In this document: positions 54,901 to 57,900 of the stretch, one piece after another | Layout of the letters: each line of letters opens with the position of its first letter | How positions within the stretch are numbered: position 1 is the first letter of the stretch | DNA from: Escherichia coli | Lineage (GTDB): Bacteria; Pseudomonadota; Gammaproteobacteria; Enterobacterales; Enterobacteriaceae | DNA: 64,000 nt | Direction: 5' to 3' (one strand) | Assembly: GCF_041886205.1 (NCBI RefSeq) | Contig: NZ_CP169029.1 | Made by a program: the position numbers

Positions 54901-57900
54901 CGTGCGCTGGCAGGGGCAAGTGGTGACCGGGAAACGCAAATATTTTGTACGAACCTGATGGCGGAACTGGTGTCCATCGCAGGTGAATACTGGCTGAGTG
55001 ATCAAATCCCAGCAGAATTTTATGGCAAAGCGGCGCGACTGCAGTTAGTCGAAAACGCTTTGACCGTTCAACCGTTAAATTGATCCCTTTTTAACAAGGA
55101 ATTTCTATGGCACGCATTATTGTTGTTACTTCGGGCAAAGGGGGTGTTGGTAAGACAACCTCCAGCGCGGCCATCGCCACTGGTTTGGCCCAGAAGGGAA
55201 AGAAAACTGTCGTGATAGATTTTGATATCGGCCTGCGTAATCTCGACCTGATTATGGGTTGTGAACGCCGGGTCGTTTACGATTTCGTCAACGTCATTCA
55301 GGGCGATGCAACGCTAAATCAGGCGTTAATTAAAGATAAGCGTACTGAAAATCTCTATATTCTGCCGGCATCGCAAACACGCGATAAAGATGCCCTCACC
55401 CGTGAAGGGGTCGCCAAAGTTCTTGATGATCTGAAAGCGATGGATTTTGAATTTATCGTTTGTGACTCCCCGGCAGGGATTGAAACCGGTGCGTTAATGG
55501 CACTCTATTTTGCAGACGAAGCCATTATTACCACCAACCCGGAAGTCTCCTCAGTACGCGACTCTGACCGTATTTTAGGCATTCTGGCGTCGAAATCACG
55601 CCGCGCAGAAAATGGCGAAGAGCCTATTAAAGAGCACCTGCTGTTAACGCGCTATAACCCAGGCCGCGTAAGCAGAGGTGACATGCTGAGCATGGAAGAT
55701 GTGCTGGAGATCCTGCGCATCAAACTCGTCGGCGTGATCCCAGAGGATCAATCAGTATTGCGCGCCTCTAACCAGGGTGAACCGGTCATTCTCGACATTA
55801 ACGCCGATGCGGGTAAAGCCTACGCAGATACCGTAGAACGTCTGTTGGGAGAAGAACGTCCTTTCCGCTTCATTGAAGAAGAGAAGAAAGGCTTCCTCAA
55901 ACGCTTGTTCGGAGGATAAGTTATGGCATTACTCGATTTCTTTCTCTCGCGGAAGAAAAACACAGCCAACATTGCAAAAGAACGGCTGCAGATTATTGTT
56001 GCTGAACGCCGTCGCAGCGATGCAGAACCGCATTATCTGCCGCAGTTGCGTAAAGATATTCTTGAGGTCATTTGTAAATACGTACAAATTGATCCTGAGA
56101 TGGTAACCGTACAGCTTGAGCAAAAAGATGGCGATATTTCTATTCTTGAGCTGAACGTGACCTTACCGGAAGCAGAAGAGCTGAAATAATCCCGCTGTAA
56201 AAGCGCATTTATCTTCAAGGCAGAGTTATCTCTGCCTTGAGTTTTTCATCCCTCTCATCCACGTTGTGGTAAAGCGGCGAGTATTCTTGCTGATACTCCT
56301 CATTGCTATTTCCACCTCCCCCTTTACACCTTAAGGCTGTTCCCACGCACAAAACAAAATGTTTATGCCTGGTTGAGTAAATAACCTTATTGTTAGTGCG
56401 GATATACTGGGAGATGATAACCCCGCAATTTCATTATTCATTGTTCTCCCATAGGATGAGGTTTCCCGCCGTAACTGGCGGGCTTTTTTTGCCCCAGAAT
56501 TTTCTCTTTCAACATCCTGTAAACGAAAACTGCGCCGAAGCGCAGTTTAATCGTTGATGGTCAGAACGACCAGTTCACACCAGCCACCGCATTCCACGGG
56601 GATTCCACACCGGCACCATGGCTATACCCCATCCCGAGATGCCCGCTTAACGTACTGCTGAATGAGGCTTTAATACCTGCCTGGTATATTCCACGTCTGC
56701 CCGACAAATCATTGACAAAATTACCGTCACTATTCACTTTCACCCGATTATCATCGACAAATTCTTTGCGCAAAGCCGCCTTCAGCCAGGGTTCAATTTC
56801 TATACCGTTCCCCAGACGCATGTTGTAACTCAGCGTTGCGCCCAGTTCACGATATATACTGCGGGTATCGACTGATTTCGATTCCATGCCATTGGATAAA
56901 TGATATTCAGGGTTATCAGCGGTGAACCCCGTTAACGATGCATACGGCGTCAGGTTCCAGTTACCATCGGTAAATCGCATCCCGGTTTCAATGTGACCAC
57001 CCAGCCCGTTGCTGCGATAACTGCCGTTGGCGGCTCCACCGCTGCTCATTTTACCGGCTACGTTACTTTCAAAACGGTTCAGCTTCACGACACCGTCCAG
57101 ATAGAAACCACTTTCATGTTCCCAACTGGCATAGCCGCCCAGAGAATAACTGCCCACACAGCCATGTCCTCCGCGATCAAAACCGATATGTGAATGGGAA
57201 TAACCCATAAAAGCGCCCAGCGTGGCAATTCCTTCAGGAATATCATTACGGCTGTCGATCCCCACGGTCATTCCGGTCAGCGTCTGCTCAAACCCGGCAC
57301 CCGCATCGGTGGTGACATTATTACGGGTGTTATACGTCGCCCCCCAGACATTATTGTTGTGTGGACTCGCTTTCATTATGTTCAACCGCTCGCGAATACT
57401 GTTTAGCTCAGCATCAAATACCAACGGTAATGTTGCAGCCATATTGAGTACGGCTGCCGTAGAAGGCGTGATGCGTTTCTCCGGAACGGGTGTCGGCGTT
57501 GGATCGGGAGTCGGGTCTGGATTTGGGTTTGGGTTCGGGTTTGGGTTTGGGTTTGGGTTCGGGTTTGGGTTTGGGTTTGGGTTTGGGTTCGGGTTTGGGT
57601 TCGGGTTCGGGTTCGGGTTCGGGTTCGGATTTGGGTTCGGATTTGGGTTCGGATTTGGGTTTGGGTTTGGGTTTGGGTTTGGGTTTGGGTTGACATTATT
57701 GGTCAGGTTCCAGTTACTGTTACCGTCACTTTTCAGGACATACTCATAGGTCCCAAGATCAACGAAACCGCCAGTATTGCCCAGCGTAAACGAAGCATCC
57801 CCTCCCCCTGTTTTCACCAGCGTCATCGCGTCGTCAGACTGAGGGCTGACGCCGGTATCCTGAACAAAGATTTTAAAATTACCAGTGGCGTTGTTGTTGA

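What the first reader, a model, noticed from the sequence alone, without database searches (positions are those of the whole stretch)
56250..56490. Orphan terminator-like hairpin between minE and the autotransporter suggests a small transcript
The minCDE operon already has a strong terminator at 56217..56247, yet a second plus-strand hairpin with a long T-run (56465..56490) follows about 220 bp later with no ORF of 60 aa or more upstream. The interval could encode a small RNA or small protein.
Basis: inference. Interest (0 to 1): 0.3.

Follow-up and report, generated by a model that had tools for sequence, protein, structure and literature searches.

The report
Unannotated Hfq-bound small RNA after minE
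The "orphan" terminator downstream of the E. coli minCDE operon most likely ends a roughly 66-base regulatory small RNA that binds the chaperone Hfq; it is strongly conserved in E. coli and E. albertii, carries no annotation in the records and family library checked, and has no name in the papers searched.

Summary
A 7-pair G+C-rich hairpin (56465-56482) followed by seven T (56484-56490) lies about 240 bp after the minE terminator. No conserved ORF lies upstream.

It is not a spare terminator. The 57 bases 56425-56481 are 100% identical between E. coli and E. albertii, while minE itself is 90.6% identical and the flanking spacer 46-73%.

Published Hfq RNA-RNA interactome data for K-12, which is 99.2% identical here, list "minE.ycgI.IGR" as an Hfq-bound RNA:
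- In stationary phase it gave 137 chimeric fragments, all as the second RNA in the chimera, as sRNAs behave.
- In another dataset its 3' ends map to 1223978-1223983, which is exactly this T-run.

Rfam, RefSeq and the searchable literature give it no name.

Best reading: an Escherichia-restricted, Hfq-dependent small RNA of about 66 nt (56425-56490). The minE intrinsic terminator and a published Rho-dependent termination region (about 56404) insulate it from minCDE.

Still unproven:
- The 5' end is inferred; the weak -35/-10 promoter match is TTGTTA/GATGAT.
- Targets are unknown.
- Term-seq in K-12 reported no 3' end here.

This is a new member of a known kind, of moderate interest.

The parts
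56214..56246 (+). Intrinsic terminator of minCDE (12-pair stem 56214-56241 plus T5)
   Evidence: -19.8 kcal/mol. The K-12 Term-seq 3' end at 1224224/5 corresponds to window 56243/4.
56280..56369 (+). C-rich, G-poor stretch (C/G about 3), rut-like; poorly conserved and carrying indels
   Evidence: Composition and variability. It lies just upstream of the Rho termination region mapped at K-12 1224064(-), which is window about 56404 (Rho score 24.9, p 3.6e-67).
56374..56418 (+). Conserved upstream block with the best promoter-like arrangement: -35 TTGTTA 56390-56395, 17-bp spacer, -10 GATGAT 56413-56418
   Evidence: CTGAGTAAATAACCTTATTGTTA is invariant in 9 E. coli sequences. ATGATA (56414-56419) is invariant including E. 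albertii. This was the top weight-matrix hit in 6 of the 9 E. coli sequences and second in the other three. It matches only 8 of 12 consensus positions and was missed by the consensus scan. Its role as a promoter is inferred, not shown.
56425..56490 (+). Predicted small RNA, about 66 nt: GCAAUUUCAUUAUUCAUUGUUCUCCCAUAGGAUGAGGUUUCCCGCCGUAACUGGCGGGCUUUUUUU
   Evidence: The 3' end comes from iRIL-seq coordinates 1223978-1223983. The 5' end is inferred from the start of the 57-nt block that is 100% identical to E. albertii and its 7-nt distance from the putative -10.
56427..56461 (+). A/U-rich body with at most weak predicted structure, the candidate seed; it contains CAUUGUUCUCCC, the complement of a Shine-Dalgarno-plus-AUG-like GGGAGAACAAUG
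   Evidence: In the 77-nt fold the centroid shows only the terminator as paired, and predicted pairing in the body is weak (z -0.6 to -1.7). The region is invariant except for one C-to-A change in the ST131 lineage.
56465..56490 (+). Intrinsic terminator and Hfq-binding 3' end of the small RNA (7-pair stem, loop TAAC, C, U7)
   Evidence: E. albertii keeps it with a stem one pair shorter and a longer T-run.
56519..56548 (-). Terminator of the convergent ypjA/EhaD-like autotransporter gene (56561-60106, minus strand); a neighbour, not part of the small RNA
   Evidence: The hairpin AAACTGCGC-TTCG-GCGCAGTTT is followed by TTTTCGTTT on the minus strand. It is conserved in E. albertii.

Best explanation
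The hairpin at 56465-56490 is the intrinsic terminator and Hfq-binding 3' end of a free-standing, unannotated small regulatory RNA of about 66 nt (window 56425-56490, K-12 1223978-1224043 minus strand).

Shown:
- The terminator motif is present.
- A 57-nt block running into it is under strong purifying selection.
- In K-12, an RNA whose 3' ends fall on this T-run co-purifies with Hfq and always takes the sRNA position (second) in chimeras, mainly in stationary or early stationary phase.

Inferred:
- It is transcribed from its own weak promoter (-35 TTGTTA, -10 GATGAT, +1 about 56425).
- It is kept free of minCDE read-through by the minE terminator and a Rho-dependent terminator acting on the C-rich stretch.
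- Once on Hfq, it pairs through its weakly structured, invariant 5' body with mRNAs. That body includes the anti-Shine-Dalgarno-like CAUUGUUCUCCC, so it would most likely occlude ribosome-binding sites.

The targets are unknown.
For: Terminator:
- The motif is real and rare: 4 sites in 64 kb against 0.27 expected.

Conservation between E. coli and E. albertii:
- minE CDS 90.6% identical.
- 5' spacer 46%.
- 56373-56428 73%.
- 56425-56481 100%, a 57-nt run.
- The spacer after the hairpin 60%.

Conservation within E. coli:
- The 3' 101 nt falls below 95% identity in 16 of 5316 records.
- The 5' 152 nt falls below 95% in 776 of 5326 records.

Hfq data:
- Stationary-phase RIL-seq lists minE.ycgI.IGR with 137 chimeric fragments, 5 partners and a SIC score of 0.8. 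Because SIC = S - 1/k, this means S = 1.0, so every fragment had it second in the chimera. The U-tract is 7 and the sRNA score 0.276, placing it between RybB (0.29) and Spot 42 (0.23).
- iRIL-seq lists it as RNA2 with ends at 1223978-1223980 and 1223978-1223983, which is window 56485-56490. About 412 further chimeric fragments involve this RNA2.

Insulation from minCDE:
- A Term-seq end lies at the minE terminator.
- A Rho region lies at 1224064 with score 24.9.

Other points:
- ATGAT of the putative -10 is invariant, and the 100% block starts 7 nt after it.
- The body has at most weak predicted structure.
- There is no conserved ORF.
- The element is single-copy, absent from phage records, and its 13 'plasmid' matches are all non-mobilizable.
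Against: - No 3' end at 12239xx appears in the curated Term-seq lists for LB OD 0.4, LB OD 2.0 and M63.
- Only 18 DirectRNA-seq reads fall in the 800 nt downstream of 1224064 without bicyclomycin.
- No northern blot or mapped transcription start was found.
- The promoter match is weak (8 of 12) and the consensus scan missed it. The E. albertii -35 is poorer still.
- iRIL-seq disfavours 5'-triphosphate primary transcripts. Its presence there hints at a processed 5' end.
- The iRIL-seq partners are weak: a tktA leader with 7 fragments (p 0.0016) and a tRNA with 6 fragments. The tktA pairing is no better than shuffled sequence.
- The exponential-phase sRNA score is only 0.028.
- About 2% of E. 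coli genomes lack the element, through an IS4 insertion or a block deletion, so it is dispensable.
Confidence: 0.65

Rival explanations
1. The same Hfq-bound RNA exists but has no promoter of its own. It is cut, for example by RNase E at the A/U-rich GCAA|UUUC, from minCDE transcripts that escape both the minE terminator and Rho. Its level would then be set by how much Rho termination is relieved.
For: Read-through exists and is Rho-limited: the downstream window rises from 18 to 571 reads with bicyclomycin, exceeding the upstream window at 293. iRIL-seq favours RNAs with a 5' monophosphate. No strong promoter is present.
Against: Two terminators in series would make the supply very small. The conservation of ATGAT 7 nt upstream of the invariant block, and of a further upstream block, fits a promoter. 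RIL-seq signal rises in stationary phase (137 against 12 fragments).
Confidence: 0.2
2. The hairpin is only a fail-safe terminator that stops residual minCDE read-through from colliding with the convergent autotransporter gene. The Hfq signal would be incidental binding to a U-tailed termination product.
For: The hairpin sits between convergent genes and read-through is documented. There is no Term-seq peak and abundance is low. The iRIL-seq partners are statistically weak.
Against: A terminator needs only a stem and a U-tract. Here 40 nt upstream of the stem are 100% identical across species whose minE gene differs by 9%. All 137 stationary-phase chimeric fragments have it second in the chimera, across 5 partners. 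The autotransporter is already a pseudogene remnant in K-12 and many other strains, yet the element is kept.
Confidence: 0.1
3. The interval encodes a small protein whose gene ends at the hairpin.
For: Short plus-strand ORFs exist, including a hydrophobic 22-aa ORF with a GTG start at 56266-56334 and a 55-aa ORF at 56390-56557.
Against: The 22-aa ORF loses its start codon and acquires 3-8-nt indels in other phylogroups. The 55-aa ORF runs through the terminator, is frameshifted by a 1-nt deletion in ST131, and diverges after the hairpin in E. albertii. No Shine-Dalgarno sequence sits at a usable distance. The spacer is absent from the published list of new K-12 small proteins that was checked.
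Confidence: 0.02
4. It is a non-functional relic: the terminator of a gene lost from this variable island.
For: The region is an indel-prone island. The autotransporter decays in many strains. The whole block is absent downstream of minE in E. whittamii and other Escherichia lineages, and in all 75 or so other enterobacterial species examined.
Against: A relic would decay like its flanks (46-73% identity). Instead it is the best-conserved stretch of the locus and its RNA is found on Hfq.
Confidence: 0.03

Closest known systems
Hfq-dependent intergenic or 3'-end sRNAs first seen as RIL-seq candidates (the narP.ccmH, fliC.fliA, uhpT 3'UTR and malG 3'UTR entries of the same ranked list)
   Same: It is a short RNA ending in an intrinsic terminator with at least 7 U. 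It is Hfq-bound, always second in chimeras, stationary-phase enriched, and carries a conserved, weakly structured body. It ranks next to those entries in the stationary-phase list. MalH and RbsZ from that list were later validated. That other entries were later named (NarS, FliX, UhpU) is from my own knowledge.
   Different: It has no northern blot, no mapped 5' end, no validated target and no name. It gives fewer chimeric fragments. Its distribution is narrow: E. coli and E. albertii only among the genomes examined.
Classical sigma-70 intergenic sRNAs with a 5' seed, such as RybB, MicA and OmrA/B
   Same: The overall layout is the same: about 65-90 nt, a single-stranded 5' seed, a U-rich stretch before the terminator hairpin, and a poly-U tail for the Hfq proximal face.
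   Different: There is no sequence or family match. Rfam 15 gave nothing over 56425-56490 even at E up to 10. Those sRNAs have well-defined regulated promoters (sigma-E, OmpR), whereas no regulator site is identifiable here.
Tandem intrinsic plus Rho-dependent termination at operon ends
   Same: minCDE ends with an intrinsic terminator that is backed by a bicyclomycin-sensitive region on a C-rich, G-poor RNA.
   Different: Here the back-up lies immediately upstream of another conserved transcription unit. It may act as an insulator, or a gate, for that unit.

Membership tests
Hfq-dependent base-pairing small RNA (functional class) | Rho-independent terminator with a long 3' U-tract (at least 6-7 U) | tested here: met
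   A 7-pair stem followed by U7. It is retained in E. albertii with a longer T-run.
Hfq-dependent base-pairing small RNA (functional class) | Physical association with Hfq | tested here: met
   This comes from published data read here, not from a new experiment. RIL-seq gave 137 fragments in stationary phase. iRIL-seq after Hfq immunoprecipitation gave 3' ends at 1223978-83.
Hfq-dependent base-pairing small RNA (functional class) | Discrete small transcript with defined 5' and 3' ends | tested here: inconclusive
   The 3' end is supported. The 5' end is only inferred from conservation and a weak -10. No Term-seq peak was reported and no northern blot was found.
Hfq-dependent base-pairing small RNA (functional class) | Conserved single-stranded seed | tested here: met
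   The 57-nt run is 100% identical to E. albertii. Predicted structure in the body is weak, and in the 77-nt fold the centroid pairs only the terminator.
Hfq-dependent base-pairing small RNA (functional class) | Seed-dependent regulation of at least one target mRNA | not testable with these tools
   The RIL-seq 2016 partner table is not held. The tktA leader pairing is no better than shuffled sequence. No whole genome was available for target prediction.
Any Rfam 15 RNA family | Covariance-model score at or above the gathering threshold | tested here: not met
   No hit overlaps 56425-56490 on the plus strand even at E up to 10. The nearest is a chance OmrA-B partial match at 56493-56554, scoring 18 bits against a threshold of 40.
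Small protein gene | ORF conserved in frame across strains, with a start codon and Shine-Dalgarno sequence | tested here: not met
   The ORFs are broken by indels or start-codon loss, and one runs through the terminator.

The most novel reading that the evidence does not exclude
The small RNA is not simply insulated from minCDE but gated by it. When Rho termination on the C-rich spacer is relieved (in stationary phase, under stress, or by bicyclomycin), read-through from the cell-division operon is converted by processing into an Hfq-bound regulator. This would couple min operon transcription and Rho activity to a trans-acting RNA. It would be a Rho-gated sRNA derived from beyond an operon's intrinsic terminator.
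Probability: 0.12. Interest if true: 0.6.

Novelty: new member of a known kind. Interest (0 to 1): 0.4.

Why it matters
E. coli K-12 is the best-annotated bacterial genome. Even so, this spacer carries a sequence more conserved than the adjacent cell-division gene, and that sequence yields an Hfq-bound RNA with no name, no Rfam family and no RefSeq feature.

Confirming it would add one more regulator to the Hfq network, restricted to E. coli and E. albertii. It would also give a clean example of an sRNA gene shielded from a neighbouring operon by tandem intrinsic and Rho-dependent terminators.

It matters practically too: deletions made downstream of minE, or in the ycgI pseudogene region, could remove this element unnoticed.

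Tried and rejected
- **Rfam:** a search at E up to 10 gave nothing relevant.
- **Published K-12 small proteins** (ymgK, ymgL, ymgM and others): none lies in this spacer.
- **Literature searches** for minE/ycgI sRNA names found no named RNA. The only hit was a UTI89 filamentation screen mentioning an old hypothetical ORF in this region.
- **TATACT at 56403-08 as the -10:** rejected as the main candidate because it varies between strains (TATCCA, TATCCT, TATGCT, TACACT, CATTCT).
- **PhoP-box-like TGTTTA-N5-GGTTGA at 56360-76:** not conserved in E. albertii, so it was not pursued.
- **ArcZ chimera in EPEC RIL-seq:** it maps about 270 nt beyond the hairpin, antisense to the autotransporter remnant, so it is not this element.
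- **N-starvation RIL-seq supplements:** no entry for this spacer.
- **tktA leader pairing:** no better than shuffled sequence.
- **Scan of the 64-kb window for complementarity to the core:** the best hit lies antisense to umuC (-32.2 kcal/mol). It is probably chance and sits on a non-coding strand.
- **Remote homologues near minE:** BLAST and a covariance model over 80 species loci found only E. albertii.
- **Mobile-element origin:** no phage match. The 13 'plasmid' matches are all non-mobilizable records, several of chromosome size.
- **Covariation test of the hairpin:** not possible, because there is almost no variation.

Full report
**Context**

The window is E. coli chromosome. The spacer is 100% identical to strain LHM10-1 and 99.2% identical to K-12.

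minC, minD and minE lie on the plus strand, and minE stops at 56189. A ypjA/EhaD-like autotransporter gene converges on the minus strand at 56561-60106.

Window coordinates convert to K-12 NC_000913.3 (minus strand) as K12 = 1224279 - (w - 56189). There are no indels in this interval.

**The observation**

- The minE terminator is a 12-pair stem at 56214-56241 followed by T5. It coincides with a published Term-seq 3' end at 1224224/5 (Adams et al. 2021, PMC7815308).
- The second hairpin is CCCGCCG-TAAC-TGGCGGG at 56465-56482, then C, then T7 at 56484-56490. Its folding energy is -12.3 kcal/mol.
- With strict criteria, only four such sites exist on both strands of the 64-kb window, against 0.27 expected in simulated sequence.
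- A third hairpin at 56527-56548 has its T-run on the minus strand. It terminates the autotransporter gene, so the 56465 hairpin is a separate plus-strand terminator with no gene assigned to it.
- No RefSeq record annotates anything in the spacer.
- Rfam 15 gives no match, even at E up to 10.

**Conservation**

This is the main sequence-based evidence obtained here.

- Across E. coli phylogroups, the first 150 nt after the minE terminator vary and carry 3-8-nt indels. The last 100 nt or so are nearly fixed.
- At population scale, the 5' 152 nt fall below 95% identity in 776 of 5326 records. The 3' 101 nt do so in 16 of 5316.
- A scan of one genome per species with MinE returned 80 loci. Only E. 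albertii carries the element. E. whittamii, other Escherichia lineages, Salmonella, Citrobacter, Klebsiella, Enterobacter and the rest have unrelated sequence after minE. A covariance model of the element found nothing else.

Identity between E. coli and E. albertii, segment by segment:

| Segment | Identity |
|---|---|
| minE coding sequence | 90.6% |
| 5' spacer | 46% |
| 56373-56428 | 73% |
| 56425-56481 | 100% (unbroken 57-nt run) |
| spacer after the hairpin | 60% |
| autotransporter 3' end | 79% |

Even at minE's level of identity, 57 identical positions in a row would be expected with probability of about 0.004. At the level of the flanking spacer the probability is negligible.

A bare terminator needs only a stem and a U-tract. 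Here the 40 nt upstream of the stem are also fixed. The element is therefore under strong purifying selection.

**Coding potential**

- The 22-aa ORF with a GTG start (56266-56334) loses its start codon and its frame in other strains.
- The 55-aa ORF (56390-56557) runs through the terminator. A 1-nt deletion frameshifts it in the ST131 lineage, and it diverges after the hairpin in E. albertii.
- Published lists of new K-12 small proteins contain nothing from this spacer.

A small protein is therefore rejected.

**Published transcript evidence (K-12)**

1. Bar et al. 2021 (PMC8175672, Table S1) re-analysed the Hfq RIL-seq data of Melamed et al. 2016.
   - In stationary phase, "minE.ycgI.IGR" has 137 chimeric fragments, 5 partners, a SIC score of 0.8, a U-tract of 7 and an sRNA score of 0.276. 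It ranks between RybB (0.29) and Spot 42 (0.23).
   - SIC is defined as S - 1/k. The RNA was therefore second in the chimera in all fragments, which is the sRNA position.
   - The only 7-U tract in the spacer is the one at 56484-56490, because the minE terminator has just five.
   - In exponential phase there were only 12 fragments.
2. A 2025 preprint (PMC12262471) lists two iRIL-seq chimeras recovered after Hfq immunoprecipitation at OD about 1.
   - In both, minE.ycgI.IGR is RNA2, with coordinates 1223978-1223980 and 1223978-1223983 (minus strand). About 412 further fragments involve this RNA2.
   - These coordinates are window 56485-56490, exactly the T-run.
   - That annotation, dated mid-2025, still calls it an intergenic region.

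Evidence pointing the other way:

- The curated Term-seq lists of Adams et al. have no 3' end at 12239xx.
- DirectRNA-seq coverage downstream of 1224064 is low without bicyclomycin (18 reads).

The RNA therefore appears to be scarce in those conditions.

**Relation to minCDE**

- Adams et al. report a Rho termination region at 1224064(-), which is window about 56404. Its Rho score is 24.9 (p 3.6e-67).
- Coverage in the 800-nt upstream and downstream windows was 230 and 18 reads without bicyclomycin, and 293 and 571 reads with it.
- Just upstream lies a C-rich, G-poor stretch at 56280-56369 with a C/G ratio of about 3. This is the usual look of a Rho-utilisation site; that reading is an inference.
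- minCDE read-through thus meets an intrinsic terminator and then Rho before reaching the conserved element.

**5' end and promoter (inferred)**

- The consensus scan found no promoter in the spacer.
- TATACT at 56403-08 looks attractive in K-12 but varies between strains: TATCCA, TATCCT, TATGCT, TACACT and CATTCT.
- One arrangement is present in all nine E. coli sequences: -35 TTGTTA (56390-95), a 17-bp spacer and -10 GATGAT (56413-18). It was the top weight-matrix hit in six of them and second in the other three.
- ATGAT is invariant, including in E. albertii.
- This predicts a start at about 56425, exactly where the 100% block begins.
- The promoter match is weak, at 8 of 12 consensus positions.
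- iRIL-seq disfavours 5'-triphosphate RNAs. Processing from read-through therefore remains a live alternative.

**Anatomy of the predicted RNA (56425-56490, 66 nt)**

- It has an A/U-rich body with at most weak predicted structure.
- The body includes CAUUGUUCUCCC, the complement of a Shine-Dalgarno-plus-AUG-like GGGAGAACAAUG.
- It continues with GGUUU, the terminator hairpin and U7.
- This is the standard layout of an Hfq-dependent base-pairing sRNA.
- Within E. coli only two variants were seen. One is a C-to-A change in the ST131 lineage. The other is a stem G-to-A change accompanied by an extra T.
- With so little variation, no covariation test is possible.

**Targets**

Targets are unknown.

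- The tktA leader, an iRIL-seq partner, pairs no better than shuffled sequence.
- The other iRIL-seq partner is a tRNA.
- The best complementarity within the window lies antisense to umuC and is probably chance.
- The five stationary-phase partners are in a table that could not be read here.

**Dispensability and mobility**

- About 2% of E. coli genomes lack the element. In strain CE0032f an IS4 insertion splits it at about 56454. In strain GN4738 the whole block from the minE terminator to ymgI is deleted.
- The element is single-copy and absent from phage records.
- Its few 'plasmid' matches are non-mobilizable records, several of chromosome size.

**Verdict**

The hairpin most likely terminates an unannotated, Hfq-bound, Escherichia-restricted small RNA of about 66 nt. 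High-throughput supplements have flagged it, but nobody has validated or named it. It is a new member of a well-known kind.

The open points are its 5' end (own promoter or Rho-gated processing), its expression conditions and its targets.

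Noticed in passing
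window about 56759-56772 (+), antisense to the autotransporter 3' end; K-12 1223696-1223709(-): RIL-seq reports strong chimeras between ArcZ and an RNA antisense to ycgI. K-12 gave 43 fragments (p 4.6e-64) and EPEC gave 22 fragments (p 5.5e-39). Plus-strand transcripts therefore exist about 270 nt beyond the second hairpin, either from read-through or from another promoter, and they may act as an ArcZ target or sponge.
   Followed up: partly
window 56280-56369 (+) and about 56404: A C-rich, G-poor stretch (C/G about 3) lies upstream of a published Rho termination region (K-12 1224064, score 24.9). With bicyclomycin, downstream coverage (571 reads) exceeds upstream coverage (293), which hints at more than simple read-through.
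   Followed up: partly
window 48744-48777 (+), antisense to umuC (48027-49295, minus strand): This is the best complementarity to the conserved core in the whole window: two blocks of 11 and 10 pairs, -32.2 kcal/mol, 5.5 SD below the mean. It lies on the non-coding strand of umuC. A rough estimate puts it at borderline-chance level.
   Followed up: partly
window 56561-60106 (-) and 57500-57670: The ypjA/EhaD-like autotransporter is an intact 1181-aa ORF here. It is a remnant (ycgI) in K-12 and is annotated as frameshifted in the otherwise identical strain LHM10-1. Its long Asn-Pro repeat linker is encoded by GGGTTC/GGGTTT tandem repeats, which produced about 25 false terminator calls in the scan.
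   Followed up: no
L090 2560-4000 (E. coli CE0032f); L003 4055-4150 (E. coli GN4738): These are natural knock-outs of the element. In CE0032f an IS4 insertion splits it after GGATG (window about 56454). In GN4738 a clean deletion runs from just after the minE terminator to the ymgI upstream region, reproducing the arrangement seen in E. whittamii and other Escherichia lineages.
   Followed up: partly
window 56360-56393 (+): A PhoP-box-like direct repeat, TGTTTA-N5-GGTTGA, is followed 11 bp later by TATTGT. If functional, it would give a longer RNA of about 91 nt. It is not conserved in E. albertii.
   Followed up: no
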